Shown here in pieces: positions 3,342-63,882 of a stretch of 64,000 bases of DNA (positions are counted from its first letter, which is position 1; each line of letters opens with the position of its first letter). Source of the stretch: Candidatus Magasanikiibacteriota bacterium (lineage in GTDB: Bacteria; Patescibacteriota; Patescibacteriia; Magasanikbacterales; UBA922); assembly GCA_016193335.1 (NCBI GenBank), contig JACPSK010000001.1, positions 422,962 to 486,961 of the forward strand. Direction: 5' to 3'. A model generated the notes under the pieces. The model was not told the DNA's origin and did not search any database. It saw only the letters and a list, made by a program, of their open reading frames with translations. The translations under genes were made by a program, and so were the position numbers.

Positions 3342-3404
3342 ACTCATAAGGAATTTTAATTTCTAATTTTTAATTTTTAGTTTTTAAACAATTTTTGATG
3401 GCTT

Positions 3405-3490
3405 ATTTTTAATTATCTAAACGAAATACCGCTATCTGAAAGATACCTTCGCAGACTTGATCATTAGAAATTAAGAGAATAGAAATTCAT
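3405..3490 (-). repeat. intergenic repeat family copy A (core attctcttaatttctaat...ggtatctttcagatagcggtatttcgttt), inverted relative to copies B and C
   Basis: The reverse complement of 3413-3487 aligns at ~85% with 9178-9263. The core is flanked by AT-rich aatttttaattt/aaattgtaaattaaaaatt tracts. Confidence 0.6.
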
Positions 3491-3520
3491 TAAAAATCAT
3501 AAATTTTAAATTAAAAATTG

Positions 3521-5098: not shown

Positions 5099-5198
5099 AG
5101 AAAAAACATCTTGAAAAATCAATTCCTTCTCAATAGATTTTTGAAATTTTAACTTTCAATTTATAAATTTTTAAACAATCTTAGAGAATGATCCTCGC

Positions 5199-6797
5199 TC
5201 AATATCTGCCCAAGAGAGAGGCGCCGGTCATTTCTTTCGGCTTTTTTATGTTCATCAATTGTAGCAATGTAGGAGCCACATCGGCAAGCCTCCCGGTCCT
5301 TTTGCGGCAGCGCCTGCCTTTGAGATCCTGCCTAACCACTACAAAAGGTACCATATTGGCGGTATGCTCAGTTAAAGCTTCCCCGCTTTTTTCGTCAAGC
5401 ATGGTTTCCGCGTTTCCATGATCCGCCGTGATTATCACCTGTCCATATCTTTTCAAAACCGCCTGTACCAACCGATGGACTTGTTTATCAAGAAGCCGTA
5501 TGGCTCTCTGAGCCGCCTGGATATTCCCCGTATGACCAAGCATATCGGCATTAGGAAAATTTACAGCCACAAAATCATATTCCTTTTTTCGTATGTGCTC
5601 AAGTATTCGGGACGCCACAGCGCTCGAACGCATGCCCGGATTCTGTATATACGAATATTCATCCCCGGAACGAATGAGCTCCCGTTTTTCTCCATTGATT
5701 GGCTGAGGATAGCCACCATTGATAAAATAAGTAACATGAGCGTATTTTTCTGTCTCAGATATGTACAATTGTCTATAGCTTGAACCTATGGCCTTGGCCA
5801 GGCACTCTGATATATCCGGGCTTGGAAAAGCGGTAAGCATATTGGGAAGATCCGGACCAAAATCCGTCATAGCTACAAAACGTATATCTTTGGGCCAACG
5901 TTTTCTTTTGAATGATCCTGGATTTTTTTTTGCGAAATCAGGCTGGACAAAAGCCTTGGCCAATTGCCGAGCTCTGTCGCTCCTGGCATTGAAAAAAAAC
6001 ACAGCGTCATTGTCTCCTACCGTGGCTATGGGACGCCCGGCTTTGCATATGATACTCGGCTGTATATATTCATCATTTTCACCTCGGTTGTAAGCTTCGG
6101 CTATAGCGTCTTCCGCGCTTCCGTCTTTGAGACCAGAACCCAAAACCATGGCATGGTAAGCCTTCTCGGTCCTCTCCCATAATTTATTCCGATCCATGGC
6201 GTAGAAACGTCCGATGACAGTGGCGATTTTCTCGCCATTCTTCATGCGCGCTCTCAGGTTGCTGAGATATCTAACCGAAGAATGGGGAGAAGAATCTCGT
6301 CCATCAGTAAATAAATGCAAAAAAACTTTTCTATGTTTATTCCTTCTGAAATAATCCAAAAGGGCGTAAAGATGATCTGGATGAGCATGGGCGCTCTGCC
6401 CATCAGTGAGCAAACCCATAATATGGGCGGCTGTATTGTGTTTTTGTATGTGACACAGAGCTTGGTGAAAAGCTTCATTTTTAAAAAAAGTGCCGTTTTT
6501 GATCGCTTCGGAAATCATCAGCAAATCTTGTTTAAGCACCCGACCGGCGCCGATGTTTAGATGCCCTGCTTCGGAATTTCCGGCTTGCCCGGGAAACAAA
6601 CCGACATCAACTCCGTGCGCCTTAAGACGGGCGCTGGGATAAGAACGCAGATATTCAAATATATGAGGAGCCTGCGCCGGAGTTATGGCGTTTCCTTTAC
6701 GAGTGAAATCGGCCAAGCCGAAGCCATCCAAAATAATAAAAAGAGTGAGCCGCTTTTTATTATCATCACTTATCTTTTTTTTAGTTTTTATTACCAT
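5199..6797 (-). CDS. second, divergent iPGM-family paralogue (phosphoglycerate mutase-like, alkaline-phosphatase superfamily)
   Basis: LFIILDGFGLAD..GNSEAGHLNIGAGRV and a C-terminal ADHGNAE motif. It lies in tandem with gpmI. Confidence 0.8.
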   Translation of the reverse strand: MVIKTKKKISDDNKKRLTLFIILDGFGLADFTRKGNAITPAQAPHIFEYLRSYPSARLKAHGVDVGLFPGQAGNSEAGHLNIGAGRVLKQDLLMISEAIKNGTFFKNEAFHQALCHIQKHNTAAHIMGLLTDGQSAHAHPDHLYALLDYFRRNKHRKVFLHLFTDGRDSSPHSSVRYLSNLRARMKNGEKIATVIGRFYAMDRNKLWERTEKAYHAMVLGSGLKDGSAEDAIAEAYNRGENDEYIQPSIICKAGRPIATVGDNDAVFFFNARSDRARQLAKAFVQPDFAKKNPGSFKRKRWPKDIRFVAMTDFGPDLPNMLTAFPSPDISECLAKAIGSSYRQLYISETEKYAHVTYFINGGYPQPINGEKRELIRSGDEYSYIQNPGMRSSAVASRILEHIRKKEYDFVAVNFPNADMLGHTGNIQAAQRAIRLLDKQVHRLVQAVLKRYGQVIITADHGNAETMLDEKSGEALTEHTANMVPFVVVRQDLKGRRCRKRTGRLADVAPTLLQLMNIKKPKEMTGASLLGRY

Positions 6798-8981: not shown

Positions 8982-9177
8982 ACAGTGAAAATTTATAATT
9001 TGTAATTTGTAATTTTTAATTTAAATGATAATTTGAAAATCTTTACAGTGGCATTATACCATACAAGAAAAAAACAAGAAATCCATCATTTGTCTCAAAC
9101 ATAATCATACCAATGCGAGAGGAACTAACATTTTAATTTTTAATTTATAATTTTTATCCAATTTTCAATCTTTAAAC

Positions 9178-9263
9178 AATTTCTATTCTCTTAATTTCTA
9201 ATAGCTGAGTCTGCTATAAGGTATCTTTCAGATAGCGGTATTTCGTTTGGATCATTAGAAATT
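9178..9263 (+). repeat. intergenic repeat family copy B
   Basis: aatttctattctcttaatttctaat…aaggtatctttcagatagcggtatttcgtttggatcattagaaatt, flanked by AT-rich tracts. Confidence 0.6.
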
Positions 9264-9294
9264 ATGTCATTACAAATTGTTTAAAAATTATAAA

Positions 9295-10491
9295 TTAACG
9301 CAAAGCTTCAATCCCCGGCAGTTTTTCGCCGGACAAAAACTCAAGCATCGCTCCTCCGCCCGTTGACACCAAATCAATATATTCTGTCATGCCCGCCATA
9401 TCCATACTTTGTAAAGTTTCACCACCGCCTATCACGCCATAGGCTTTACCTTTTGAACGGGAGGCAACGAGACGAGCTACGGCCAAAGTAGCCACATCAT
9501 AAGGCTTTTGTTCAAATACTCCCATGGCGCCGTTCCATACGAGAGTCTTGGCTTGTTTTATATAAGACGCGAAAAGACGAACGGTTTTCGGCCCCATATC
9601 AAAAATCGCTTCATTTTTTTTGCAGATCAGATGCGGCTTTTTCTCAATATCCACCACTCTAAAAGAACTGCCTCGCGGATTTCCCACCACCAGGTCCAGC
9701 GGCTTAATGACTTTTTTATTTTTGCCGTAAAGCATCGCCTTCCGCGCAAGGTCTTTCTGGACCAAAGAAGCTCCCACACCATAGCCGCGGGCGTATAAAT
9801 AGGTGTTTACCAAAGCTCCTCCGAGCAATATATTTGTTACCTGAGGCAAAAGATGTTTGATAACCGGAATTTTGGTCTCAAGTTTGGCTCCGCCCAACAC
9901 AAGCACAAAAGGTCTTTTTGGCCTTTTCATCACTTTTTCCAAGCCTCTTATTTCTTTTTCCAAAAGCAAACCGGCGTAAGACGGGAGAAAACGCGTGATT
10001 CCAAGCACCGAGGCCGCGGGACGATGAGCCACCGCAAAGCCGTCGAGCACAAATATGTCGGCCAGGCTTGCGAACAGCTCTGCCAATGACTTGTCATTTT
10101 TTTCTTCTCCAGAAGAAAAACGCGTATTTTCAAGCATGGCGATTTGAGAATCTTCCAGATGATTTATTTCAAAACGCACTTTATCCGCTCGCTTCTCAGA
10201 CCAGCTCCAATTTCCCGTATTTATATATTTCACGCCCTTGCCGAGCATAATGCCAAAATGTTCGGCCACCGGAGCAGTAGAAAATGATGGCACTATTTTG
10301 CCCCCCGGCCTGCCAATATGAGTAAGCAAAATAATCTTAGCTCCTTTTTCCATTAAATACTGAACTGTGGGTAAAGATGCTTGCAAACGAGAATGATCAA
10401 GCACTCGGTTCTTCAATAGAGGTACGTTAAAATCCACTCTCAGCAAAACGCGCTTTCCCTTCAATTTTTTTAAACTTTTGATGGATTTCAT
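9295..10491 (-). CDS. pgk: phosphoglycerate kinase
   Basis: VLLRVDFNVP…; full length. Confidence 0.95.
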   Translation of the reverse strand: MKSIKSLKKLKGKRVLLRVDFNVPLLKNRVLDHSRLQASLPTVQYLMEKGAKIILLTHIGRPGGKIVPSFSTAPVAEHFGIMLGKGVKYINTGNWSWSEKRADKVRFEINHLEDSQIAMLENTRFSSGEEKNDKSLAELFASLADIFVLDGFAVAHRPAASVLGITRFLPSYAGLLLEKEIRGLEKVMKRPKRPFVLVLGGAKLETKIPVIKHLLPQVTNILLGGALVNTYLYARGYGVGASLVQKDLARKAMLYGKNKKVIKPLDLVVGNPRGSSFRVVDIEKKPHLICKKNEAIFDMGPKTVRLFASYIKQAKTLVWNGAMGVFEQKPYDVATLAVARLVASRSKGKAYGVIGGGETLQSMDMAGMTEYIDLVSTGGGAMLEFLSGEKLPGIEALR

Positions 10492-11536: not shown

Positions 11537-11626
11537 AACCAGTATACCAAATCATGAATATATAATTCAACAACAGACAGACCGGGCGCAATAGATATTA
11601 CAATTTTTAATTTATGATTTTTAATC

Positions 11627-11702
11627 AATTTTTATTCTCTTAATTTCTAATGACTAAATCCGCACGGTATCTTTCGGACAAGGATATTTTGTTTAGAGGA
11701 TC
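11627..11702 (+). repeat. intergenic repeat family copy C (more diverged)
   Basis: aatttttattctcttaatttctaatgac…ggtatctttcgg…gatattttgttt, followed by aaaattgtaaattaaaaatt. Confidence 0.5.
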
Positions 11703-11750
11703 AAAATTGTAAATTAAAAATTAAAAAAGAACGGGTTTACCCGTTCTTTT

Positions 11751-13352: not shown

Positions 13353-13520
13353 AGAAAATATTTCCTTTATCCTCCTCCATCCTGCCCGCGCGCGTCTTGG
13401 CGCTTTGGGAGGAAATAAAATGGATAGAGTGAGGGATATAAATTAAGTATGCGCAAAGTGTATAGGATACTTAAAATTTTGTCAATGCTAATGTATCAAA
13501 ACTTGAATCTTAAAATTTCA

Positions 13521-13613
13521 CAAAAGAACTGTTTCAGGAGACTGCGGAGCGCGATCTGGCGCGAGCCTGAGCGAAAATTCAGCAGAATTTTACGCGTGCT
13601 CCTGAAACAGTTA
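13521..13613. repeat. perfect 14-bp inverted repeat (aactgtttcaggag / ctcctgaaacagtt) enclosing a 65-nt GC-rich loop
   Basis: Read directly from the sequence. It lies upstream of rpsB on the minus strand, adjacent to the GC island. Confidence 0.5.
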
Positions 13614-13662
13614 TTTTGTGAAATAAAATTTTAAAATAAATAAAAACACTTAGAAATGAAGA

Positions 13663-13726: not shown

Positions 13727-15322
13727 TCACTTCTTTTTGTTCTTACCACCACCCTTCTTCGGGTGGTCCTCCTTGGCCGGCGCCTCGGGCGCGGGGACCT
13801 GGTCCGAGGCCGTGGGCACCTCGACCTGATCGGCCGCGGCCTCCGCCACCTCGTCGGGGACGGACGGCATGGTCTCCGCGGCATCGGCCTCGGCCGTGGG
13901 CTCCGTGGCCAGGACGACCTCGGTGGCCGGCTCCGGCGCGACGGCCATGCCCTGGTCGGCCTTGGCCACCGCCTCGTCCTCGACGACCGACGTGGGCTCC
14001 GCCACAAGGTCAGCAGACGCGACCGGCACCGCCTTCGGCTCCCGCTTGGGCTCGGGGAGGCCGAGCTTCCGGCGGACCATGCGGTCCAGCTCGGTCGAGC
14101 TCATACCCCCCGCGGCCTTACGGAAGGCCTCGGCCACCGGTTCGACCCGATCATCCGCGGGGTTCTCCTGGTGGTGCTTGGCCTGGCGCTCGGCCGCGGC
14201 CTCCTTGAGGAGGCGCGTGACATCGAGGTTCCCGAGATCCGCGTCCTCGGGGAGAGCATCGACGATGCGCCTCGCCGACTTGTTGGCGGACTTGACGGTG
14301 GGCACGCCGCCCATCCTCACCAGCCGCTCCCCGATCTCATCCACGAGTCGCTTCTTCGCCATGCGACGCGTGCGCTTGGCCTCGTCGGCCTCGGCCAGCG
14401 CCAGGAGCTCGGCACGCTCGGCCTCGATCTCCTCGCGGCTCCGCGGCCGGGGCATGCTGAAGAGCATGGCCAGCTCGGGGAGCTTGCGGGCCTCCCGAGC
14501 GATATTCATCTTCTGCGGGTCATCGGCGCTGATCTCTCGGATCTGTTCCTTGGTCATCACGCCGTGAGCCCGGAAGACCCTCTCCAGCTTGTCGAGCAGA
14601 TTCTGGAGCGTCCGAACCCGCTCCCGGTAGAGGCCGACGGCCTCGCCGGTGAGGTTCGGCTGGTCCTTCCGGAGCATGCCCTGGAGCTTGCGCATGTGCA
14701 TCTCCGTGAGGATGACGAAACGCATACCCGCGGACCACTTGGCGTTCCGCCAGACCAAGTCCGGGAAGATCCCGGCCAGCTCGGTCCGCAGGGGGTGCCC
14801 CACCTCGATGGGCCCGCGCTCCGGCGGCGGGGCGACCACGCGGGCCGTCTGTCCGCCCTCGTCCGCCAGCATGGCCGTGCCGGCCTTCGAGTGGCCGTTG
14901 CCACCGACCTTGCCCTTGGGGGTCTCGACGGCGGGCGGCGGGGCCACGGGCGCGGGCTCGGCGGGCTCCTCGTCGTCCTCGAACAGGAAGGCCATGGCCG
15001 CGGCCTGGGCCGCCTTGGCCTCGGCGATCTGCGCCTCGACGCCGCGCTTCCACTTCGTGACCATGAGGCCGCGACCCTCGGGGGTCGCGAGGAGATCCTC
15101 GGCCTTCATCGCAGCCAGACCGCGGAGGATCCGCTCGGACTTGGCCTTCGCCGCCTCGTCCTTGGCCACGGCCTGTTCGGCCTTGGCCTTCGTCGTCTTC
15201 TCCTCGATCAGCTGGACCGCGGTGGCCAGCAGCTCCTCGTTCGTGGGCTCACGGACGGTCGTGCCGTCCGACGTGAAGAAACCCGACTCGGATGCCACAA
15301 CCGCCTGCGTCTCATCGCTCAT
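13727..15322 (-). CDS. hypothetical acidic Ala/Glu/Lys/Pro-rich protein (~533 aa) in a high-GC island; no family recognised
   Basis: Continuous minus-strand ORF with G/C at nearly every third codon position. The start is taken at MSDETQAVV, and the tail ends KKGGGKNKKK. The flanks are AT-rich. Confidence 0.55.
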   Translation of the reverse strand: MSDETQAVVASESGFFTSDGTTVREPTNEELLATAVQLIEEKTTKAKAEQAVAKDEAAKAKSERILRGLAAMKAEDLLATPEGRGLMVTKWKRGVEAQIAEAKAAQAAAMAFLFEDDEEPAEPAPVAPPPAVETPKGKVGGNGHSKAGTAMLADEGGQTARVVAPPPERGPIEVGHPLRTELAGIFPDLVWRNAKWSAGMRFVILTEMHMRKLQGMLRKDQPNLTGEAVGLYRERVRTLQNLLDKLERVFRAHGVMTKEQIREISADDPQKMNIAREARKLPELAMLFSMPRPRSREEIEAERAELLALAEADEAKRTRRMAKKRLVDEIGERLVRMGGVPTVKSANKSARRIVDALPEDADLGNLDVTRLLKEAAAERQAKHHQENPADDRVEPVAEAFRKAAGGMSSTELDRMVRRKLGLPEPKREPKAVPVASADLVAEPTSVVEDEAVAKADQGMAVAPEPATEVVLATEPTAEADAAETMPSVPDEVAEAAADQVEVPTASDQVPAPEAPAKEDHPKKGGGKNKKK

Positions 15323-15497
15323 GGTCGCAATCTCCAATCGAACGCCGATGCGTTCGATATCAAAAAAATTAAGAACACACTCAAAAGCCTCGCAAACCCA
15401 AGGTACGACCCCAAGAAAGCGTGACTCGAGCCAGAGACTATAGCGAATGATAATGAATTTGTCAAGTATAGGCCTCAACAGAGCGAAAAAATCGCCC

Positions 15498-31372: not shown

Positions 31373-33991
31373 ATGGCAGCACTTTTCAGAAGAAGGGAAT
31401 CTGTACCAGAACCGCATACTGAACCAGCCGAGAACGATGGCGGAGATTTCGACGCGGACACAAAAAAATGGTTCGCGGAATTTGAGGGTGATAATCCGTA
31501 TGCCAAACCGGGCATGATGGCCAAAGTAGCCGCGTCGGACAGAGCAGACGCAGAATACAGGGCAAGAATGAAGGCTCCTGAACCAAAAAAAATGCGCGAG
31601 CCAAACAGACTGGCCAAATTTTTGGGCCTGGGAGTCTTGAGAAATTGGGAAAAAGAAGCTGCGTGGCTTGAAGAGCAGGAAAAGATGAACAGAGAAACAG
31701 CGGAACGCATAGCCGCTGAGCATACGGTGGAACAAAATCTTAAAAGGGCCGGCGAAGAGGCCGAAGAGACTCAAGCGGCCCTAAGACAAGCTCAAGGTAA
31801 GGCTGGTGAAGGAACCCCCGGGGCTCTGCGCCTCCGTGTATTATCTGGGGAAGCAAGACAAAATAAAAGAGCTCTAACATTTGCGGCCAGGAATGCCAGG
31901 GCAGAGCTTAGAATGGTAAGACCGGTAGACCCCAAAAGCGTCCCCGAGAAACGTATTCAAGAGCTTCTCGACGAGGCTGAAGACGAAGATACACTTTCCT
32001 ACGGCCAAGACGGGCATATGCCTTTTGAGTCTTCAGGACAAAAACCAAAAGCAGAAGATACTCAACAAGCCAACGCAGAAAACGCCGAAGACCCAGCTCT
32101 GGAAACTGTAAAAGCAGAGCTCTTGGCCATGTTTAAGGCGGAAGAAAACGAAGGTGTGCATCCTGAAGTCTTGGCAGACGATATAGTAAAGAGTGATTTT
32201 GTGCTTGGGGATCCTGAGCAGGCTCTCAAAGCTCTCTCTGATACCATTAGTGGACTCAAAAAAGGATTGCTAAAAAGAGGCATACGCGTAAGTGAGGAAG
32301 GCACCGTACTTCTTGATAAAGGATCCACGCGAGAAAAGCATCGGGAATATGAAAAACACAGAAAAACAGTGGATTGGCTGCAGGCTCTGATACTTGCGAA
32401 GGAGAAACTGGAGGCTAAGCAAGATACAGATGTGGCGGCTGGTGAAGATGACGATGACCAGCAAGAAAATCAAAATGCAGAATCAGATAATGCAAGAACA
32501 AGCGACAGAAAAAGTGAGGAAACTGAAGAGGGCGAAGGCGCGGAAAAAACTCTAACAGCAGAAGATCTCCTCGCGCAGATTGACATGGACGGAGAGCTCG
32601 TGGATGTGGTGCACCAACTGGCAAAGTTCGACGCATTGGACACTTCCAACACCGCAGGCCGACACCATGTTGATGATCTAATTGCCGAATTAAAAATAGA
32701 TCTTGAAGACCAAGGATATGAATTCGATGAAACAGGAGCAATAAAGCTTGATGATGAATCGAACCCAGTAACCGGAATAAAATACAAAAATCCCGATGAT
32801 AAAGGAAAAATAAAACTTCTACAAGGCTTATACGAAATGAGAGAACTCGAATCTTCTTCTCGCAAACAAAACGACGCCGTGGGATACGGCGAAGGCCAAG
32901 AATTTCCTTTTGATTCTTCCACTCCGGAAGAATATATAGGAAAAGAAGCGGACGAAGACGTTAAAAGACTCGCCTTGCGGATAAAAAACATGAAAAAAAT
33001 ATCAAATCCGCATGAAGGTCTTAAACGCAGGATCGCGGAGTTGCAGGGAGAACTGAGAGATTTAAAAAAAGGCAAAAAGAAAAAAACAGACCCGGAAAAA
33101 CCTCAAGCTACCCTTCACGAACAAACAGATATAGCAAGAGATGGAGAAGATGGAAACAGACCTTCAGAACTTGCGCCAGACCTGTCTGTTGAAAACGCTC
33201 AAGGAGACCATACGGAAGAAGACCCGAAAGAAATTGCTCTACGAAAGGTAAAAGCAGAGCTCTTGGCCATGTTTAAGGATGGGGATAATGAAGGCGTGCA
33301 TCCTGAAGTATTGGCAGGCGATATATTGGACAGTGATTTTATGCTAGAGGATCCCAAACTCGCGCTTGAGGCAGTGTCTGACTCAATTAGTGGTCTGAAA
33401 GATGGTCTCTTGAAAAGAGGCATACGAGTAAGTGACGAAGGAGCTGTCCTGCTTGATAAAGGATCTACCCGCGAACAAAACCCGAAGCACGAAAAACACA
33501 GAAAAACAATAGATTGGTTACAGGCTTTTATTAAGGTAAAAGAAAAACTAGAAAGACAATTGCAAAATCAAAACGACAAAGCCACAGCCTACGGCGAAGA
33601 CGGAGAAATGCCTTTCGAATCTCCAAAACTAAGCTTAGACGAGCGGATAAAACGGCTTACTCTGCGCGTAGAAACCATGAAAAAAATAACAAAGAAACCA
33701 CATGAAGGTCTTAAACGCAGGATCGCGGAATTGGAAGAGAGATTGGAAGCACTCAAAATGAAAAAAACAAAAGAAAAAGAAACCCAAGAACCTAAATCAG
33801 AACTTGCAGGCCGCCAAAAACCCCGAAGTACAAAGAAAGACGATATCCGAGCTCTTGGAGAAGAAATACAAAAATTGGATATCGAAGAGTTGGCCGAACG
33901 GCATAGAAACCCGCGGCGTGCCTTAGTCAGACAAAGCGGACCAAAAAGAGGGGCAGATGGAGACAAGGATACGCTTAAAAAAGCGGCCTGA
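31373..33991 (+). CDS. hypothetical 872-aa acidic, charge-rich protein with internal ~107-aa and ~60-aa repeats
   Basis: Two ~320-bp DNA repeats (32095-32415 and 33235-33555, ~80% identical), plus PHEGLKRRIAEL-containing repeats. No signal peptide and no family recognised. Confidence 0.6.
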   Translation: MAALFRRRESVPEPHTEPAENDGGDFDADTKKWFAEFEGDNPYAKPGMMAKVAASDRADAEYRARMKAPEPKKMREPNRLAKFLGLGVLRNWEKEAAWLEEQEKMNRETAERIAAEHTVEQNLKRAGEEAEETQAALRQAQGKAGEGTPGALRLRVLSGEARQNKRALTFAARNARAELRMVRPVDPKSVPEKRIQELLDEAEDEDTLSYGQDGHMPFESSGQKPKAEDTQQANAENAEDPALETVKAELLAMFKAEENEGVHPEVLADDIVKSDFVLGDPEQALKALSDTISGLKKGLLKRGIRVSEEGTVLLDKGSTREKHREYEKHRKTVDWLQALILAKEKLEAKQDTDVAAGEDDDDQQENQNAESDNARTSDRKSEETEEGEGAEKTLTAEDLLAQIDMDGELVDVVHQLAKFDALDTSNTAGRHHVDDLIAELKIDLEDQGYEFDETGAIKLDDESNPVTGIKYKNPDDKGKIKLLQGLYEMRELESSSRKQNDAVGYGEGQEFPFDSSTPEEYIGKEADEDVKRLALRIKNMKKISNPHEGLKRRIAELQGELRDLKKGKKKKTDPEKPQATLHEQTDIARDGEDGNRPSELAPDLSVENAQGDHTEEDPKEIALRKVKAELLAMFKDGDNEGVHPEVLAGDILDSDFMLEDPKLALEAVSDSISGLKDGLLKRGIRVSDEGAVLLDKGSTREQNPKHEKHRKTIDWLQAFIKVKEKLERQLQNQNDKATAYGEDGEMPFESPKLSLDERIKRLTLRVETMKKITKKPHEGLKRRIAELEERLEALKMKKTKEKETQEPKSELAGRQKPRSTKKDDIRALGEEIQKLDIEELAERHRNPRRALVRQSGPKRGADGDKDTLKKAA

Positions 33992-43046: not shown

Positions 43047-43130
43047 ACCAGGCCGGCTTGTCCAGCCATCACATCGGACTTAATTAAAAATTGTAAATTA
43101 AAAATTAAAAATTATTAATCATTATCTTCT

Positions 43131-44747
43131 ATGAAAGAACAAAGTACCTACACGCATATCGCCTCTTACGAGCCCAAGGATCCGAGCGAAGTAAAACGAG
43201 TGGTGCTCCTCTACTCCGGCGGACTCGATACTTCGGTAATGCTCAAATGGATTCAAGACAGATACCACGCGGAAGTGATAGCTCTTTGCTTGGACATTGG
43301 CCAGCTTGCCGATGACCTGGAATTTATAAAACAAAAGGCGCTTAAACTTGGCGCGATCAAAGCCATTGTGCTCGATTGCAAAGACGAATTCGCTGACAAA
43401 TATATTTCCCGGGCTATAAAAGCCAACGCCTGCTACCAGGGAGACTACCACCTCAGCACGCCCATCGGCAGACCTCTTCTCGCCAAAAAAGCGGTGCAAA
43501 TCGCTTTTGAAGAAAAAGCCGACACGATAGCCCACGGCTGTACGGGCAAAGGCAATGATCAGGTCCGCTTGGAAGGCACCGCCGTTACGCTCAATCCGGA
43601 CATCAAAATTATCGCCCCTGTCCGCGAATGGGGCATGGGGAGAGACGAAGAAATAGCTTACGCGGAAAAACACGGTATTCCCATAAGCCATAGCGCAAGC
43701 AAGCCCTACAGCCATGATGACAATATGTGGGGCGTAACCAGCGAAGGCGGAGAAATAGAAAATCCGGAACTCATCCCGCCCCTCGAAAATATTCTTGAAA
43801 TAAGCACTCCGCCCAAAAAAGCTCCGGATCAGGAAGAATTGGTACATCTCGAATTTGTAAAGGGCCTACCAGTTTCTCTCAATGGAGAACAAATGAAACT
43901 GAGCGAATTGGTCATACGGCTCAATCGCTTGGCCGGCAAACATGGGGTGGGAATCGTGCACCATCTGGAAGACAGGGTGGTGGGTTTGAAAGTTCGAGGC
44001 TTGTACGAACAGCCCGCGGCTCATGTCATTATCAAAGCACATAAAGAACTGGAAAAATACGTCTGTACCCGGCATGAAAACAAATTCAAAGAATTGGTAG
44101 ACCAAGAATGGGCATACCTGTGCTACGGAGCGCTTTGGTACGAACCGCTCATGAAAAATCTTTCCGGTTTTATAGACACGGTGAATGAAAAAGTAAATGG
44201 CACGGTAACCCTAAGACTGTACAAAGGAAATTGCGACGTGGTGGCTCTCAAAACTCCTGATGCCCTGTTTGACGAAAAACTGGCCACCTTCAATAAAAAC
44301 GATTTGTTCAATCAAAATGCCTCACCCGGTTTCATTGAGCTGTGGACTTTGCAAATGAAGATGGCTCGACAGACCAAAAAAAATATCCTGTTTACGGTGA
44401 GCGGAGCAAAAAAACAAGAATTACTTCAAAGTATGCGAGACTTGCAAAAATTAAATTGCATATTGTACGCCACCAAACATACCAGCGAATTTATGGAACA
44501 GCATGACATCGTCAACAAACTGGTGCACAAAATTTCAACCCAAGAAAGGCCGAACATTGAAACGCTCATGCGAGAACGCCGTTTTGACCTTATCATCAAT
44601 ATACCTTCTCCAGAAGGAAACGGAGAACAAAAAACCGATGGGGAAAGAATGCGAGAACTGGCCGTGGAGCACAATGTCCCTCTCGTCACTGACGTGGATG
44701 TGGCCAAAAGCATGGTGGAAAAACTCAAACAAATATACGAACGCTAA
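43131..44747 (+). CDS. argG: argininosuccinate synthase fused to a C-terminal MGS-like (CarB C-terminal type) domain
   Basis: N-terminal part: VLLYSGGLDTSV…AHGCTGKGNDQVR (ArgG). The C-terminal ~130 aa (ILFTVSGAKKQELLQ…LYATKHTSEF…DLIINIPS…) resembles a methylglyoxal-synthase-like domain. Confidence 0.8.
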   Translation: MKEQSTYTHIASYEPKDPSEVKRVVLLYSGGLDTSVMLKWIQDRYHAEVIALCLDIGQLADDLEFIKQKALKLGAIKAIVLDCKDEFADKYISRAIKANACYQGDYHLSTPIGRPLLAKKAVQIAFEEKADTIAHGCTGKGNDQVRLEGTAVTLNPDIKIIAPVREWGMGRDEEIAYAEKHGIPISHSASKPYSHDDNMWGVTSEGGEIENPELIPPLENILEISTPPKKAPDQEELVHLEFVKGLPVSLNGEQMKLSELVIRLNRLAGKHGVGIVHHLEDRVVGLKVRGLYEQPAAHVIIKAHKELEKYVCTRHENKFKELVDQEWAYLCYGALWYEPLMKNLSGFIDTVNEKVNGTVTLRLYKGNCDVVALKTPDALFDEKLATFNKNDLFNQNASPGFIELWTLQMKMARQTKKNILFTVSGAKKQELLQSMRDLQKLNCILYATKHTSEFMEQHDIVNKLVHKISTQERPNIETLMRERRFDLIINIPSPEGNGEQKTDGERMRELAVEHNVPLVTDVDVAKSMVEKLKQIYER

Positions 44748-44765: not shown

Positions 44766-45689
44766 ATGAGTAAACCGAATATTTCGGTATCTTTCGCAGG
44801 CATAACACTAAGGAACCCAACTATCTTGGCTTCCGGCATTTTGGGAGTGACAAAATCTTCCCTAAAGTACGTAATAAAACACGGAGCCGGAGCCTGCGTG
44901 ATCAAATCAATAAGCCTTGAACCGAGAAGCGGCCATAGGGCACCCAATATGCATCCCGTGGAAGGAGGATTTTTGAACGCGGTCGGTTATTCCAATCCCG
45001 GCTTGGAAGAAGCAAAACGAGAATTTTTACATCTATCAGACCTGCGAGCTCCGGTGATAGCGAGCATCATAGGAAAAGACGCTGAAGAATTTGCCAAAAA
45101 TGCTGAACTTTTTTTGAGCGATGAATTCGCAGCCGTGGAAGCTGTACTGTCTTGCCCACACACACCCGGATACGGGACTCTCGCAGGCCAAGGCAGTCCG
45201 GAAGCTACTGAAAAAATTACCAAAGCGATTAGAGCAAAAACCAAACTGCCTTTATTTATAAAATTATCCCCTCAGAGCGAACCAATCTCAGAAGTCGCGA
45301 AAGCGGCGGAAGCCGGCGGAGCGGATGGCATCACGGCGATCAACACCGCGGGCCCGGGAATGTATATAGACATAAAAACACGAGCGTCTGTGTTACATTT
45401 TGGCATGGGAGGACTTTCAGGACCGGCGTTGAGGCCCATTGCCGTGCGATGCGTTTATGATATATACAAGTCAGTAAAAATTCCCATAATAGGAGTAGGC
45501 GGCATCCAATCCGGAAGAGATGCCATAGAAATGATGATGGCAGGGGCGCAGGCCGTACAGATCGGAACCGGAATTTATTACAAAGGCATTGACGTGTTTA
45601 AGCAAGTTACGGACGAGATAAAAATATTTATGGAAGAAGAGGGCATAAAAAAACTTTCAGAAATAGTCGGGGCAGCACATAAAAAATAG
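44766..45689 (+). CDS. pyrD: dihydroorotate dehydrogenase catalytic subunit (class 1B)
   Basis: LRNPTILASG…; an FMN-binding TIM barrel. Confidence 0.9.
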   Translation: MSKPNISVSFAGITLRNPTILASGILGVTKSSLKYVIKHGAGACVIKSISLEPRSGHRAPNMHPVEGGFLNAVGYSNPGLEEAKREFLHLSDLRAPVIASIIGKDAEEFAKNAELFLSDEFAAVEAVLSCPHTPGYGTLAGQGSPEATEKITKAIRAKTKLPLFIKLSPQSEPISEVAKAAEAGGADGITAINTAGPGMYIDIKTRASVLHFGMGGLSGPALRPIAVRCVYDIYKSVKIPIIGVGGIQSGRDAIEMMMAGAQAVQIGTGIYYKGIDVFKQVTDEIKIFMEEEGIKKLSEIVGAAHKK

Positions 45690-45710
45690 AATAGCTTTCT
45701 GACGCGGAGT

Positions 45711-45822
45711 TGCCTACTTATCCCTTTATAACATATTTTTATGAATCCTGCGGAGTCAGCTCGCTTCGCTCTCGCATTCATCCTTAGGCTTTCTAAAATA
45801 TGTTATAAAGGATAGGTTCCCG
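45711..45822. repeat. ~105-bp palindromic element, copy 1 (terminal inverted repeats atccctttataacatatttt / aaaatatgttataaaggat)
   Basis: Homologous to 62121-62232 along its whole length, including the cgcttcgctctcgca core. Confidence 0.6.
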
Positions 45823-45850
45823 GATTTATATAATGCATAATATCCGGACT

Positions 45851-45949
45851 GAAGCTTCGTACATAATGTTTTTTACAATGGCAACTGTTTGAGTCCGGCT
45901 TCGGCCGGGCGAGTTTTGCCATTGTAAAAAACATTATGTACGAAGCTTC
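45851..45949. repeat. perfect 34-bp inverted repeat flanking a 31-nt loop that contains a ccggc-UUCG-gccgg hairpin
   Basis: The arms are 45851-45884 and 45916-45949, exact reverse complements. The right arm contains the first ATG of the pyrK ORF. Confidence 0.6.
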
Positions 45950-45974
45950 TCCAACAAAATCCCCTATAAATTAT

Positions 45975-46805
45975 ATGAAAGACATACTGCCTGATGTGCA
46001 AAAAACCCTGCCCATCAAAAATATCACGAACGAAAATCCGCATGTAAAAACCTTTTGGTTTGAACATACTCTGCACTCCAAACCGGGTCAATTTGTGATG
46101 CTCTGGATTCCCGGCCTGGACCAAAAACCCTTTTCAATTTCTTATGATTATGGAGACAAATTCGGTTTGTCCATATTTTCGGTGGGTCCTCTGAGCTCTG
46201 TATTGTTTAATACCACAAAGGTTGGGGACAAGATTGGAATCACCGGCCCTTATGGAAAATCATTTTCAACCGGAAAGCACAAACACTACATTGCCGTTGG
46301 CGGAGGATACGGGTCGGGGCCTCTCGGATTTCTGGCTGAAATTTTGGAAAACACGGGCGTCACCCTTGACTTCTGCGTAGGGGCCAAAAACAAGGATTTA
46401 CTTCTTTTTGAAGAGCGAGCAGCAAGACTTTCTCATGTTAGCGTGCATGTGGCGACAGACGACGGTTCCAAAGGACACAAAGGATACGTTACAGAATTGC
46501 TTGAAGATATATTAAAAAAAAGAAAAGATAAAAAAGACATCATCGTTTCGGCTTGCGGCCCTGAGCTTATGGAAAAAACGGTTCTTGATCTTGCGAACGC
46601 GTATGACGTCAACTGTGAGCTGAGCATCGAACGTTATATGAAATGCGGTTTCGGAATCTGTGGACAATGCTCGGTGGATCCACTTGGTATTCCTTTATGC
46701 ACAGAAGGCCCGGTGCTTTCAAAAGATACGGCGAACAAGCTGACTGAATTCGGAGCTTATCACCGGAATAAATGCGGGGGAAAAGAATATTACAAACCAT
46801 CATAA
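45975..46805 (+). CDS. pyrK: dihydroorotate dehydrogenase electron-transfer subunit
   Basis: An FAD/NAD-binding domain and a C-terminal 2Fe-2S cluster motif (CGFGICGQCSVD). The start is taken at MKDILPD, outside the hairpin. Confidence 0.85.
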   Translation: MKDILPDVQKTLPIKNITNENPHVKTFWFEHTLHSKPGQFVMLWIPGLDQKPFSISYDYGDKFGLSIFSVGPLSSVLFNTTKVGDKIGITGPYGKSFSTGKHKHYIAVGGGYGSGPLGFLAEILENTGVTLDFCVGAKNKDLLLFEERAARLSHVSVHVATDDGSKGHKGYVTELLEDILKKRKDKKDIIVSACGPELMEKTVLDLANAYDVNCELSIERYMKCGFGICGQCSVDPLGIPLCTEGPVLSKDTANKLTEFGAYHRNKCGGKEYYKPS

Positions 46806-51370: not shown

Positions 51371-51624
51371 TCTACGGCGGTTCTTTAAGAATTTTTGTGA
51401 CTGCGACTTCTGCCCCAGAATCTCAATAATCGGATGCACATGGAGCTATCTTCAAACAAAAACAACTCTTTCGGGGGGAAATTTTAAAATCGAGGAATAC
51501 AGACGTATGGGAACACTATTCGGAAATATCTGCTACTACCGCCTTAACCCAAATAATTTTGAACGATCCTAGAGATTAAAGATTTCAAATTGTTTAAAAA
51601 TTGTAAATTAAAAAAATTTAAATT

Positions 51625-52191
51625 ATGTCTACTTTCCCACACGAAGGACTCCCCGTACAGCCACTACAAAACGAAGACCAAAAACATCCCCAAAGACGTC
51701 ATCTGAGAGCTGTAACCGATCCGGATGAAACAGAAACTCAAAGCAGGGAAGCACTGCTCAGACAGAGGCGAGAGCTTCTCGAGAGAAAAGCGCAAATAGA
51801 ACGCGATTTTGCTAGCCAGATAGCGGCACTGAACGAAGAGTTAAAAACAGTAAACGACTCCATATTGGGCATTTCGGATACGCATAATTCGGGAGTCCGC
51901 AATCGCAAACGCGAAAAGGCACTTGAGGCATACGCAAGAAGCCCTGAATCTCTCATTGAGCATTGTATAATAACAATCACACTGAGACGCACGGACATAG
52001 AACGTTACCAAAGTATGCTCGCTGGAGAACGAAAACGCCAAATAAGCGAAAAAGACAGGCAAGCTTTGACAGATGAAAAAATCGAAGCAAACATCAAGAC
52101 GCTCCAAGAAGATATAGATAGAGCCTGGGACCGAATTAAAGAAATAAGCTCAAACATAAATGAATCCGAAAGAGAACAAAAGGTCGCCTGA
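51625..52191 (+). CDS. hypothetical coiled-coil protein
   Basis: ORF rich in heptad-like E/K/R. It is preceded by an aaattgtaaattaaaaa motif. Confidence 0.4.
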   Translation: MSTFPHEGLPVQPLQNEDQKHPQRRHLRAVTDPDETETQSREALLRQRRELLERKAQIERDFASQIAALNEELKTVNDSILGISDTHNSGVRNRKREKALEAYARSPESLIEHCIITITLRRTDIERYQSMLAGERKRQISEKDRQALTDEKIEANIKTLQEDIDRAWDRIKEISSNINESEREQKVA

Positions 52192-52666: not shown

Positions 52667-52735
52667 TTGCCGTCTCCTTTAGTGTTCCGAATATAGGACT
52701 CTACTGTAATAGGGACGACTTGTCAAGTAGGGGGG

Positions 52736-52939
52736 TACGGATAGCACGGATCTACAGATCAACAGATAATACAAACAGTGCATTATTGTGGGGTGTGATA
52801 CAAAATAGATAACTTTGATCTGGGAATCCGTAGATCAGTAGATCCGTGCTATTTTACAGGTCAACGAGTAATTCAAATGGTGGATTATGTAGAATGTGAT
52901 TTGGAAATCCGTAGATCAGTAGATCCGTACTATCCGTAC
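52736..52939. repeat. three copies of a ~26-32-bp GATC-rich motif (…atccgtagatcagtagatccgtRctat…): one inverted (52736-52761) and two direct (52826-52857, 52905-52939)
   Basis: Read directly, in a 310-bp non-coding region between divergent genes. Confidence 0.55.
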
Positions 52940-61968: not shown

Positions 61969-62073
61969 AATATAAATATGATTACAGACAAATATAGATG
62001 GGTCCCCATAATAACTGTGCGTCTATAATGTTGACCAAGTATAGGGAATGAAACGATACTTGTCAATCTTGAA

Positions 62074-62105
62074 GAGAAAAACCGGCTTTCTGGCCGGTTT
62101 TTCTC
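62074..62105 (-). terminator. intrinsic terminator downstream of rpsA
   Basis: gagaaaaaccgg-ctttct-ggccggtttttctc. Confidence 0.55.
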
Positions 62106-62120
62106 TAGTGATTGTGGAAA

Positions 62121-62232
62121 TGTGAAAGCCTATCCCTTCATAACATATTTTAAAAATCCTACGGAAGTCATCCCGCTTCGCTCTCGCACTCGTCCTCCGG
62201 CTTTTTAAAATATGTTATGAAGGGATAGGCGT
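62121..62232. repeat. ~105-bp palindromic element, copy 2 (perfect 24-bp terminal inverted repeat gcctatcccttcataacatatttt / aaaatatgttatgaagggataggc)
   Basis: Aligned by eye to copy 1; the core cgcttcgctctcgca is conserved. Confidence 0.6.
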
Positions 62233-62269
62233 CGAAATGTGTTGTTCCCATCCTCTATTTTTTCAGTTT

Positions 62270-63538
62270 TCAGACTGCGGCTTCTACACCATCCTCTGCT
62301 GTCTTCTCCATAGAAGGAAGAATTTCATCTGGAGGGTTCAGAGACTCTCCGACCGTTTCTGTCCGCTGTTTCTTTGAAACTTCCGCGTCTGGAGTCTCTC
62401 CTATGGATTCGTCTTTCCTCCGAGCTCTTCCTTTAACACCTTCTAACTTCAAACCCAAACGATGTTCAGCAGGCTCTATGGACAAAATCTCAAATTTTCT
62501 CTTTTCACCTACAGAAAATTGGCTCAAAAAACCTTGGCTATCTCCAATCGGTTTATCCGAGAGATCTGATATATGAGCCAGCCCATGTATCTCTTCGTCA
62601 AGACGCACCATAAGACCAAAGGCTTCCACTTTGTGAATTTCACCCTCTATAATCTGTCCGACCTTGTATCGCTCTTTCGCCTGTTTCCACGGATCGTCTA
62701 TCAGACGCTTCAAAGACAAATAAATTTTTGACTTGTTCAAATCTATGATCTGGGCTTTTACTTTATCTCCTATTTTCAAAATATCTTTGGGGTGATCTAT
62801 GCGCTGCCAAACGATCTCAGAGATATGAATCAAGCCTTCCAAACCATCGCCAAACTTCATAAACGCACCGAAAGGAGTAAGGGCCCCTATGGCGCCTTCT
62901 ACCACATCCCCGATTTTGTAAGATTCAAGGATACTCTTTTGTTCATCCTCCCACACGGCCTTTTCCGAGAGGATCAATTTTCCTTCTTCCGGGTTGGCGT
63001 CTAGGATTTTTACTTTGATGGCCGTATCGACAAATTGTTTGAGATGATCCAAAATTCTGTTCTTGTCTCCTCCCGGGACTCTTGGATAATGTTCAGGGCT
63101 GAGCTGAGAAACAGGCAAAAAACCGTTTACCGCATCCACCTGCAAGAGTAAGCCGCCTTTATTGGCTTGAATCACGCGCGCGGAAACAATTTTGGATTCT
63201 TTTTTGGATTCAAGCATCCTATCCCATACCAGTTTGTGTCCTGCTATGCGGAAAGACAGCTCCATTTCTCCGTTTTCGTTTTCTTCTTCTACAACGGTTG
63301 CTTCCACTTGATCCCCCACTTTAACCTCGGAAAACTCTTTAGACTCATTAAACAACTCTTCTCCCCGCACGACACCTATAATCATGCCATTTATATCCAC
63401 TCGAACCTCGCCCTTATCTATGGAAATAACCACGCCTTTTACCAAGTCACCTACCAGGGGAATCTTGGAAAAATAATCTTTAAGTAGTTCCCCAAAATCT
63501 TGAGGATTGGGGACTTTGGCGGCTGAATCGTCTGACAT
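62270..63538 (-). CDS. rpsA: 30S ribosomal protein S1 (four S1 domains, short form)
   Basis: Repeated S1 OB-fold motifs (GxVxG…). The start is taken at MSDDSAAK. Confidence 0.8.
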   Translation of the reverse strand: MSDDSAAKVPNPQDFGELLKDYFSKIPLVGDLVKGVVISIDKGEVRVDINGMIIGVVRGEELFNESKEFSEVKVGDQVEATVVEEENENGEMELSFRIAGHKLVWDRMLESKKESKIVSARVIQANKGGLLLQVDAVNGFLPVSQLSPEHYPRVPGGDKNRILDHLKQFVDTAIKVKILDANPEEGKLILSEKAVWEDEQKSILESYKIGDVVEGAIGALTPFGAFMKFGDGLEGLIHISEIVWQRIDHPKDILKIGDKVKAQIIDLNKSKIYLSLKRLIDDPWKQAKERYKVGQIIEGEIHKVEAFGLMVRLDEEIHGLAHISDLSDKPIGDSQGFLSQFSVGEKRKFEILSIEPAEHRLGLKLEGVKGRARRKDESIGETPDAEVSKKQRTETVGESLNPPDEILPSMEKTAEDGVEAAV

Positions 63539-63882
63539 ATATATCTTTATTCTGAGACAGACACATAAGCTATCTGTCTTTCTTAACCGAGTATAAAACC
63601 CAGTTACCCGATTAGGGGCTAAATTAAAGTCCAACTACTATAGCAAAGCGAGGGCGCAAATGCAAGACCTCCAACCAAGCTCCGCCACTCATCTCCACTC
63701 TTGCGCCAAGGCGAAGTTTGGGCTATAATAGGCTGGTATAATGAGTTTTATTTTGCTTTTGTCTTCCTCCTCTAAAGAAACCAAAGGGCAACGAAAAGCA
63801 GTGTCTTTGGGCTCTCTTGACCGAACAAAAAAATAAAGACGTAAAATACTTCATAAATCATTTCTTTGAAAGGAACTAAGCT

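What the first reader, a model, noticed from the sequence alone, without database searches (positions are those of the whole stretch)
45851..45949. Perfect 34-bp inverted repeat with a UUCG-capped inner hairpin immediately upstream of pyrK
The arms gaagcttcgtacataatgttttttacaatggcaa (45851-45884) and ttgccattgtaaaaaacattatgtacgaagcttc (45916-45949) are exact reverse complements. The 31-nt loop itself folds as ccggc-UUCG-gccgg, a textbook hyper-stable tetraloop. A 34-bp perfect stem is far beyond what a terminator needs. The right arm contains the first ATG of the annotated pyrK ORF, so the true start is probably the next Met at 45975. A long dsRNA stem of this kind would be an RNase III substrate. 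It could also be an attenuator or anti-terminator for pyrK-pyrE-pyrF. The loop (gagtccggcttcggccgggcgag) is only vaguely reminiscent of the PyrR-binding loop. Alternatively it could be a DNA-level cruciform or the end of a small mobile element.
Basis: seen in the sequence. Interest (0 to 1): 0.6.

Follow-up and report, generated by a model that had tools for sequence, protein, structure and literature searches.

The report
Young palindromic insertion splitting pyrD-pyrK
The perfect 34-bp hairpin is real, but it is a recent piece of non-coding palindromic DNA inserted between two normally overlapping pyrimidine genes of one uncultured groundwater bacterium; it is not a conserved pyrimidine regulator and is fairly ordinary.

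Summary
Arms 45851-45884 and 45916-45949 are exact reverse complements. The 31-nt centre folds as a cUUCGg-capped mini-hairpin (RNA MFE -69.3 kcal/mol, z = -12.4). Independent k=31 assemblies from nine sequencing runs break exactly at the arm, so the repeat is not an assembly artefact.

The host is a Candidatus Magasanikbacteria (CPR) MAG. I examined six relatives. In four, including the closest (pyrK 84%, pyrD 90% identical), pyrD and pyrK overlap or lie 2 nt apart. The other two carry small genes between them, not a hairpin. The window instead has a 285-nt spacer made of three stacked hairpins. One of them belongs to a repeat family with a second copy at 62128-62230, which is flanked by an 8-bp direct repeat.

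So the element is a lineage-specific insertion, most likely a low-copy MITE/REP-like palindrome. No Rfam or PyrR match and no U-tract were found, and there is no conservation, so the attenuator reading is not supported.

MITE membership is unproven. I found no second copy in the window, GTDB representatives, JGI metagenomes, IMG/VR, phages or plasmids, and there is no target-site duplication. RNase III cleavage of the co-transcribed stem is plausible but untested.

The parts
45851..45884 (.). Left arm of the perfect 34-nt inverted repeat. Its outer 8 nt, GAAGCTTC, are themselves palindromic.
   Evidence: Logan contigs end at 45880/45884.
45885..45915 (.). 31-nt centre. The inner hairpin UCCGGC-UUCG-GCCGGG lies at 45894-45909, with 9 unpaired nt on the left and 6 on the right.
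   Evidence: The exact 14-mer CCGGCTTCGGCCGG is unique in the window.
45916..45949 (.). Right arm. It contains the spurious upstream ATG at 45936.
   Evidence: A Logan contig starts at 45920.
45682..45971 (+). About 290 nt present in the window but absent from the closest relative. They are inserted between ...CACAT and ATATGAA.... They provide the new pyrD end (AAA AAA TAG) and a 25-nt unstructured A/T-rich leader for pyrK.
   Evidence: Junction comparison with L011, L022, L023 and L014.
45714..45818 (.). Family-B palindromic repeat, copy 1 (17-nt perfect arms 45723-45739 / 45795-45811). It is the first hairpin of the spacer.
   Evidence: 85% identical to 62131-62223.
45820..45847 (.). Small second hairpin (CCCGGAT...ATCCGGA) between the family-B copy and the focal element.
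   Evidence: fold; single copy.
44766..45689 (+). pyrD (class 1B dihydroorotate dehydrogenase catalytic subunit). Its C-terminus changed from ...H-I* in the relative to ...H-K-K* here.
45975..46805 (+). pyrK (electron-transfer subunit), with the true start at 45975.
62128..62230 (.). Family-B palindromic repeat, copy 2 (32-nt arms, 97%). It is flanked by the 8-bp direct repeat GAAATGTG at 62117-62124 and 62234-62241. This shows that palindromic elements have transposed in this genome.

Best explanation
The 99-bp element is a young, non-coding palindromic insertion. It is most likely a low-copy MITE/REP-like mobile palindrome. It landed in the formerly overlapping pyrD/pyrK junction of one Candidatus Magasanikbacteria lineage, next to an earlier palindromic repeat (family B). 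Shown: it is real; it is absent from the orthologous junction in every relative examined; the spacer is a stack of three hairpin modules; one of those modules is a dispersed repeat whose other copy has a flanking 8-bp direct repeat; the genome carries several other palindromic intergenic repeats of roughly 100-200 nt; and pyrK starts at 45975, 25 nt beyond the stem. Inferred: the pyr genes are still transcribed as one unit, because the other gaps are 13-18 nt and no promoter- or terminator-like site is called on the + strand of the spacer. The element would therefore be transcribed and fold into a 34-bp perfect dsRNA stem. That stem breaks pyrD-pyrK translational coupling. By analogy with Correia and ERIC elements, it probably serves as an RNase III cleavage site or a 3'-end-protecting structure, so the pyrD and pyrK-pyrE-pyrF segments of the mRNA could differ in stability. 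This would be a by-product of the insertion, not a dedicated pyrimidine sensor.
For: Reality. Derived insertion: the closest relative, L011, has pyrD and pyrK overlapping at ATATGA. L014, L022 and L023 have an overlap or a 2-nt gap within the same pyrC-like/argG-MGS/pyrD/pyrK/pyrE/pyrF synteny. The spacer is not a relic of the extra genes seen in L012. Mobile-palindrome context: family B has 2 copies at 85% identity, and copy 2 is flanked by an 8-bp direct repeat. Family A has at least 3 full copies, and there are further single long inverted repeats at 13515-13624 and 52735-52939. Relatives' loci (37 kb) hold no perfect inverted repeat of 18 nt or more. Youth: the arms are 34/34 identical although the lineage has diverged 10-16% in protein from its closest relative. 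Not a known RNA. Operon continuity: gaps of 18/285/17/13 nt and no promoter or terminator call on the + strand in the spacer. The pyrK leader is typical of this genome, which does not use Shine-Dalgarno sequences. Precedent for RNase III processing of transcribed MITE hairpins, and for copy numbers as low as 1 per genome: PMC10969869, PMC2649163.
Against: No second copy was found anywhere: not in the window at up to 3 mismatches or by short-word blastn, nor in GTDB species representatives, JGI metagenomes, IMG/VR, phages or plasmids. There is no target-site duplication of 3 nt or more. No transposase was found among the window proteins scanned. There is no significant similarity to family B or the other palindromes. 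Only 64 kb of a contig of at least 687 kb could be searched, and the source genome is apparently not in the DNA collections, so copy number is effectively untested. Transcription and RNase III cleavage are inferred only.
Confidence: 0.55

Rival explanations
1. De novo inverted duplication. A pre-existing spacer already ended in the small GC hairpin (CCGGC-UUCG-GCCGG). During replication the nascent strand folded back or switched template there and copied 34 nt of the opposite strand. That would create a perfect, single-copy palindrome without any transposase.
For: Everything a MITE should have beyond its inverted repeat is missing: no other copy, no target-site duplication and no related IS. 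The arms are perfect, as expected for a templated copy, and the small stable hairpin sits roughly at the centre.
Against: The inner hairpin is not exactly central (9 versus 6 unpaired nt). The unique 65 nt still need a source, because the ancestral junction had no spacer. The same genome shows dispersed palindromic repeats of similar size, one copy with a flanking direct repeat, so a mobilisation route exists.
Confidence: 0.2
2. Selected cis-regulatory RNA of the pyr operon. Whatever its origin, the stem has been kept because it works as an RNase III processing site, a transcript stabiliser or a transcriptional pause, and it sets the pyrD : pyrK-pyrE-pyrF expression ratio.
For: A perfect 34-bp stem with a cUUCGg cap is an extremely stable RNA. 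It sits inside an otherwise compact operon. The same sequence is found in nine runs, including one run (SRR4343435) whose accession lies well outside the SRR121134xx series. Correia elements provide a precedent (PMC2649163, PMC10969869).
Against: Conservation does not extend beyond one population. Relatives with the same operon do without it. Covariation cannot be assessed, and perfect arms are equally explained by youth.
Confidence: 0.12
3. Pyrimidine-responsive attenuator or anti-terminator (PyrR-type or similar).
For: Its position is immediately upstream of pyrK-pyrE-pyrF.
Against: There is no PyrR (RF00515) or other Rfam match, even at E<=10. No U-tract follows either the long stem or the inner hairpin, and no terminator-like site is called. 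No alternative terminator/antiterminator pairing appears in the fold. The element is absent from all relatives.
Confidence: 0.03
4. DNA-level site: a cruciform or a protein or recombinase recognition site such as an origin, a nick site or an attachment site.
For: The single-stranded DNA fold is also very stable, and the termini GAAGCTTC are themselves palindromic.
Against: No recombinase, relaxase or replication gene lies nearby. GAAGCTTC is not significantly enriched: 4 observed against 1.65 expected, with 8 of 100 shuffles reaching 4 or more. There is no skew change at the site. A 31-nt spacer disfavours cruciform extrusion from duplex DNA (established knowledge).
Confidence: 0.05
5. Assembly artefact (a chimeric fold-back join).
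For: Perfect palindromes can arise from chimeric reads, and the 31-nt centre is seen only in the MAG assembly.
Against: Both junctions are seen independently, left flank to arm in nine runs and arm to right flank in one Logan contig. The contig breaks fall exactly at the k-1 boundaries expected for a genuine inverted repeat.
Confidence: 0.02

Closest known systems
Correia repeat-enclosed elements (CREE / nemis) of Neisseria
   Same: Non-coding palindromic elements of about 100-155 bp with long terminal inverted repeats. They are inserted in intergenic regions and within operons and are co-transcribed into long hairpins. RNase III cleaves or binds those hairpins, which alters expression of adjacent genes (PMC2649163, PMC10969869).
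   Different: Correia elements are present in tens to hundreds of copies, create a TA target duplication, and carry an IHF site and promoter motifs. Here only one copy is seen, there is no duplication, there is no sequence similarity, and the arms are perfect and longer (34 nt).
ERIC/IRU, RUP and REP/BIME-type bacterial intergenic palindromes
   Same: Small imperfect palindromes that accumulate between genes of one operon and often stack side by side, as BIMEs do. The three-hairpin spacer here looks similar. When transcribed, they affect mRNA decay (PMC10969869, PMC2229807).
   Different: Those families are defined by many dispersed copies and a consensus sequence.
Family-B palindromic repeat of this same genome (45714-45818 and 62128-62230)
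   Same: Same size class (about 103 nt), with long A/T-rich arms around a G+C-richer core. It is intergenic, and one copy lies directly beside the focal element.
   Different: There is no significant sequence similarity to the focal element in Smith-Waterman tests against shuffles, with p between 0.06 and 0.97 across comparisons. Copy 2 of family B is flanked by an 8-bp direct repeat, whereas the focal element has none.
PyrR-binding attenuators of Firmicutes pyr operons (Rfam RF00515)
   Same: An RNA hairpin in a pyr operon leader or intercistronic region.
   Different: There is no match to the covariance model, no terminator/antiterminator alternative, no U-tract, and no conservation in relatives.

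Membership tests
MITE (miniature inverted-repeat transposable element) | Terminal inverted repeats | tested here: met
   34-nt perfect inverted repeats that reach the very ends of the palindrome.
MITE (miniature inverted-repeat transposable element) | Small size and no coding capacity | tested here: met
   99 bp. Stops occur in two of the three + strand frames within 14 codons and in the third after 24 codons (read from the sequence). The only ORF start is the non-conserved ATG at 45936.
MITE (miniature inverted-repeat transposable element) | Presence/absence polymorphism at orthologous sites (evidence of insertion) | tested here: met
   Absent from the pyrD-pyrK junction of L011, L014, L022 and L023, where the genes overlap or are 2 nt apart. 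This shows that the whole 290-nt spacer is derived. It does not show the 99-bp unit moving on its own.
MITE (miniature inverted-repeat transposable element) | Target-site duplication flanking the element | tested here: not met
   No flanking direct repeat of 3 nt or more, allowing +/-4 nt boundary shifts. Some transposase families make none, so this weakens the claim without excluding it.
MITE (miniature inverted-repeat transposable element) | Multiple dispersed copies in the genome | tested here: inconclusive
   Single copy in the 64-kb window. No matches in GTDB representatives, JGI metagenomes, IMG/VR, phages or plasmids. The source genome itself (contig of 686,675 bp) is not in the DNA collections and could not be scanned.
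MITE (miniature inverted-repeat transposable element) | A parent IS or transposase with matching termini | not testable with these tools
   No transposase domain in the window proteins scanned against Pfam. The rest of the genome is unavailable.
PyrR-dependent pyr attenuator (RF00515) | Match to the PyrR binding-loop covariance model | tested here: not met
   No hit at gathering score or at E<=10 on 45600-46050.
PyrR-dependent pyr attenuator (RF00515) | Intrinsic terminator downstream, with a competing antiterminator | tested here: not met
   No terminator-like site in the spacer. The stem is followed by UCUCCAACAAAAUCCCC. The fold shows three independent hairpins and no alternative pairing.
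Intrinsic (Rho-independent) terminator | G+C-rich stem immediately followed by a U-tract | tested here: not met
   The long stem is A/U-rich and has no U-tract after it. The inner GC hairpin is followed by CGAG before UUUU.
RNase III substrate | About 20 bp or more of uninterrupted dsRNA in a transcribed region | tested here: inconclusive
   A 34-bp perfect stem is predicted. Transcription across it is inferred from operon compactness. Neither the presence of rnc in the genome nor cleavage could be tested.

The most novel reading that the evidence does not exclude
Palindromic modules of roughly 100-200 nt (long A/T-rich arms around a small G+C-rich hairpin core) are seen here as families A and B, the singles at 13515 and 52735, and the focal element. 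They could form a CPR-specific class of mobile 'operon punctuation'. In these Shine-Dalgarno-less, streamlined genomes, such modules would be repeatedly exapted as RNase III or processing sites that uncouple translationally coupled genes. The focal element would then be a newly born, still perfect example caught just after insertion.
Probability: 0.07. Interest if true: 0.5.

Novelty: new member of a known kind. Interest (0 to 1): 0.22.

Why it matters
The practical value is annotation hygiene. The pyrK start should be 45975, not the ATG inside the stem, and Logan-type gene calls on the broken contig pick the wrong one. Perfect inverted repeats of 31 nt or more systematically break k=31 assemblies at this locus.

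There is also a small biological point. CPR/Patescibacteria genomes are usually described as streamlined and poor in mobile DNA. This 64-kb stretch nevertheless holds at least three kinds of palindromic intergenic repeats and a freshly split, formerly overlapping gene pair. I found no paper on such repeats in CPR in the held library. If the stem is processed by RNase III, it would be a natural experiment on uncoupling the two subunits of one enzyme (PyrD-PyrK). None of this changes current understanding of pyrimidine regulation.

Tried and rejected
1. Kinship between the focal element and family B or the 13515 element. By eye both seemed to share CTG..GAGTC..GCTTCG..CG in the core and CATAA..TTTT in the arms. 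Smith-Waterman scores against 2000 shuffles were not significant: F-B1 p=0.97, F-B2 p=0.26, F-E13 p=0.04 uncorrected, and all loop-only and arm-only comparisons p>=0.06. Rejected.

2. Exact arm searches all returned zero: a 22-mer in GTDB representatives, a 24-mer in JGI metagenomes and a 23-mer in IMG/VR.

3. The termini-only pattern GAAGCTTCGTAC-N60-90-GTACGAAGCTTC gave 0 hits in GTDB and IMG/VR and 6 in JGI. On inspection these are unrelated. Five contigs of Ga0307489 carry repeated copies of the 16-nt palindrome GTACGAAGCTTCGTAC, and one contig (L020) has a different 31-nt perfect inverted repeat.

4. blastn of the whole spacer against phages and plasmids found nothing.

5. The spacer as a relic of the two genes found between pyrD and pyrK in L012: tblastn gave nothing significant.

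6. Retrieving the 686-kb NCBI contig to scan the rest of the genome. Exact-protein look-ups for the 276-aa pyrK, for P0001 and for the S1-domain gene at 62270-63634 were not on record. The pyrD look-up listed one contig in the 0.2-1 Mb size class but returned only Logan loci.

7. Promoter inside the element: no sigma-70-like site on the + strand of the spacer.

8. Rfam in permissive mode returned only sub-threshold plant miRNA-precursor models, that is, generic long hairpins.

Full report
**1. The observation**

The sequence at 45851-45949 is as described. It has a 34-nt left arm (GAAGCTTCGTACATAATGTTTTTTACAATGGCAA), a 31-nt centre and an exactly complementary right arm. The 34-mer has no other match in the window at up to 3 mismatches, and none of 100 dinucleotide-preserving shuffles produced a match.

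As RNA, the 111-nt stretch folds into the full 34-bp stem plus an inner UCCGGC-UUCG-GCCGGG hairpin. The MFE is -69.3 kcal/mol against -24.0 +/- 3.6 for shuffles, z = -12.4. As DNA it gives -44.2 kcal/mol, z = -12.0.

The repeat is not an artefact of one assembly. I looked up the exact pyrD protein in public assemblies and got nine Logan contigs from nine runs. All of them end at 45880 or 45884. The one Logan contig carrying pyrK starts at 45920. These are exactly the positions where a k=31 de Bruijn graph must branch at a perfect inverted repeat longer than k. Both flank-arm junctions are therefore independently confirmed. The 31-nt centre is seen only in the window assembly.

**2. Context**

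The flanking genes are pyrD (44766-45689) and pyrK, followed by pyrE and pyrF. A pyrC-like amidohydrolase and an argG-MGS fusion lie upstream.

The best pyrK hit is an NCBI protein of a Candidatus Magasanikbacteria (CPR/Patescibacteria) MAG. It is 276 aa long, which corresponds to a start at 45975. Homologue N-termini align to MKDI... at 45975, and the 13 residues encoded from the ATG at 45936 have no counterpart in close relatives.

Genes in this genome lack Shine-Dalgarno motifs and have A/T-rich leaders. The 25 nt between the stem and the ATG look like any other leader here.

**3. The spacer is a lineage-specific insertion**

In the closest relative available (L011; PyrK 84% and PyrD 90% identical), pyrD and pyrK overlap at ATATGA. 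In L014, L022 and L023 (64-69% identical) the two genes overlap or are 2 nt apart. L022 and L023 keep the full synteny pyrC-like/argG-MGS/pyrD/pyrK/pyrE/pyrF/.../miaA. Two other relatives have one or two small genes between pyrD and pyrK, and the window spacer shows no trace of these.

In the window the operon gaps are 18, 285, 17 and 13 nt. About 290 nt (45682-45971) sit between ...CACAT and ATATGAA.... They replace the last pyrD codon and supply a new stop (H-I* has become H-K-K*).

**4. The spacer is a stack of palindromes, and the genome carries others**

The spacer folds into three independent hairpins. The first (45714-45818) has a second, 85%-identical copy at 62128-62230. That copy is flanked by the 8-bp direct repeat GAAATGTG, which is the mark of a transposed element. 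I call this family B.

The window also holds an A/T-rich palindromic family A, with full copies at about 3354-3530, 9130-9300 and 11598-11726 plus fragments. Single long inverted repeats lie at 13515-13624 and 52735-52939. These elements occur in convergent, divergent and tandem intergenic regions. By contrast, 37 kb of relatives' loci contain no perfect inverted repeat of 18 nt or more.

**5. What the focal element is not**

- No Rfam family reaches its gathering score anywhere in the window. A permissive search of 45600-46050 returns only sub-threshold generic-hairpin models and no PyrR element.
- No terminator-like site is called in the spacer, and no U-tract follows either stem.
- No promoter-like site is called on the + strand of the spacer.
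- The element has no significant similarity to family B or the other palindromes.
- No transposase or recombinase domain was found in the window proteins scanned.

**6. Copy number**

This is the weak point. I found no further copy in the window, in GTDB species representatives, in JGI metagenomes, in IMG/VR, or in phages and plasmids.

A termini-only pattern did hit six JGI contigs, but inspection shows they are unrelated sequences that happen to carry GTACGAAGCTTCGTAC palindromes.

The source genome itself appears to be absent from the DNA collections, and I could not retrieve the rest of its 687-kb contig. Genome-wide copy number therefore remains untested. There is also no target-site duplication.

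**7. Most likely explanation**

The element is a young, non-coding palindromic insertion. I rate a low-copy MITE/REP-like mobile palindrome as most likely (about 0.55). The reasons are that it arrived in a junction that was ancestrally spacer-free, that it sits beside a repeat whose other copy bears the mark of transposition, and that the genome holds several such elements. Reviews note prokaryotic MITE families with as few as one copy per genome (PMC10969869).

The main rival (about 0.2) is a de novo inverted duplication nucleated at the small GC hairpin. It explains the perfect arms, the single copy and the missing duplication equally well.

On function, the pyr genes are probably still one transcription unit, so the element should be transcribed into a 34-bp dsRNA stem. 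This is inferred and not shown. The stem abolishes pyrD-pyrK translational coupling. By analogy with Correia elements (PMC2649163, PMC10969869), it is a plausible RNase III site or 3'-end protector. The evidence does not support a dedicated pyrimidine-sensing attenuator.

**8. Novelty and verdict**

This is a new, orphan example of a well-known kind of bacterial sequence, the palindromic intergenic insertion. It lies in a lineage where such elements appear little described: I found no paper on such repeats in CPR in the held library.

- Observation: confirmed.
The start codon and the mobile or DNA-level alternative hold; the attenuator reading does not.
- Interest: low to moderate, 0.22.

Noticed in passing
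window 3354-3530, 9130-9300, 11598-11726; fragments at 51570-51625, 43083-43125, 8990-9022, 5146-5182: An A/T-rich palindromic repeat family ('family A', about 130-175 nt, copies 73-81% identical, some inverted) occupies several intergenic regions around the glycolysis and tsf/rpsB genes.
   Followed up: partly
window 62117-62241: The second copy of the family-B palindrome (62128-62230, 32-nt arms) is flanked by the 8-bp direct repeat GAAATGTG, a likely target-site duplication. It lies next to a bidirectional terminator-like hairpin at about 62072-62100.
   Followed up: partly
window 13515-13624 and 52735-52939: Two further single-copy long inverted repeats. One has 26-nt arms at 96% around a 58-nt core. 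The other is a composite of three GTACGGATAGCACGGATCTACAGATC-type arms spanning 205 nt in a divergent intergenic region.
   Followed up: no
window-wide gene starts (30 genes sampled): Almost no gene has a Shine-Dalgarno-like motif within 20 nt of its start, and leaders are A/T-rich. This genome seems to initiate translation without SD pairing.
   Followed up: partly
window 43131-44747; also L022 468-2078 and L023 468-2084: Argininosuccinate synthase is fused to a C-terminal MGS-like domain. The fusion sits inside the pyrimidine operon between a pyrC-like amidohydrolase and pyrD, and this arrangement is conserved in relatives.
   Followed up: no
window 45880/45884 and 45920 (ends of L001-L010): Logan k=31 contigs break exactly k-1 bases into the palindrome on both sides. 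On the broken contig the gene caller picked the ATG inside the stem (the 289-aa product P0121), which is a wrong start.
   Followed up: yes
L015-L019 (JGI Ga0307489 contigs): An unrelated organism carries many copies of the 16-nt palindrome GTACGAAGCTTCGTAC and related GTACGAGCTCGTAC motifs, clustered within about 100 nt on at least five contigs.
   Followed up: no
L020 2677-2782 (OGLG01003840.1): A different perfect 31-nt inverted repeat (CGTCGGAGGAAGCTTCGTACTGGCCGGTGTG ... its complement) with a 44-nt centre. It shares only the 12-nt search motif with the focal element.
   Followed up: no
window 3521-5122 and 5199-6797: Two tandem paralogues of cofactor-independent phosphoglycerate mutase lie next to enolase.
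   Followed up: no
window 31373-33991 and 13727-15478: Two large ORFs (872 aa and 583 aa) have no Pfam match at E<=1e-5.
   Followed up: no
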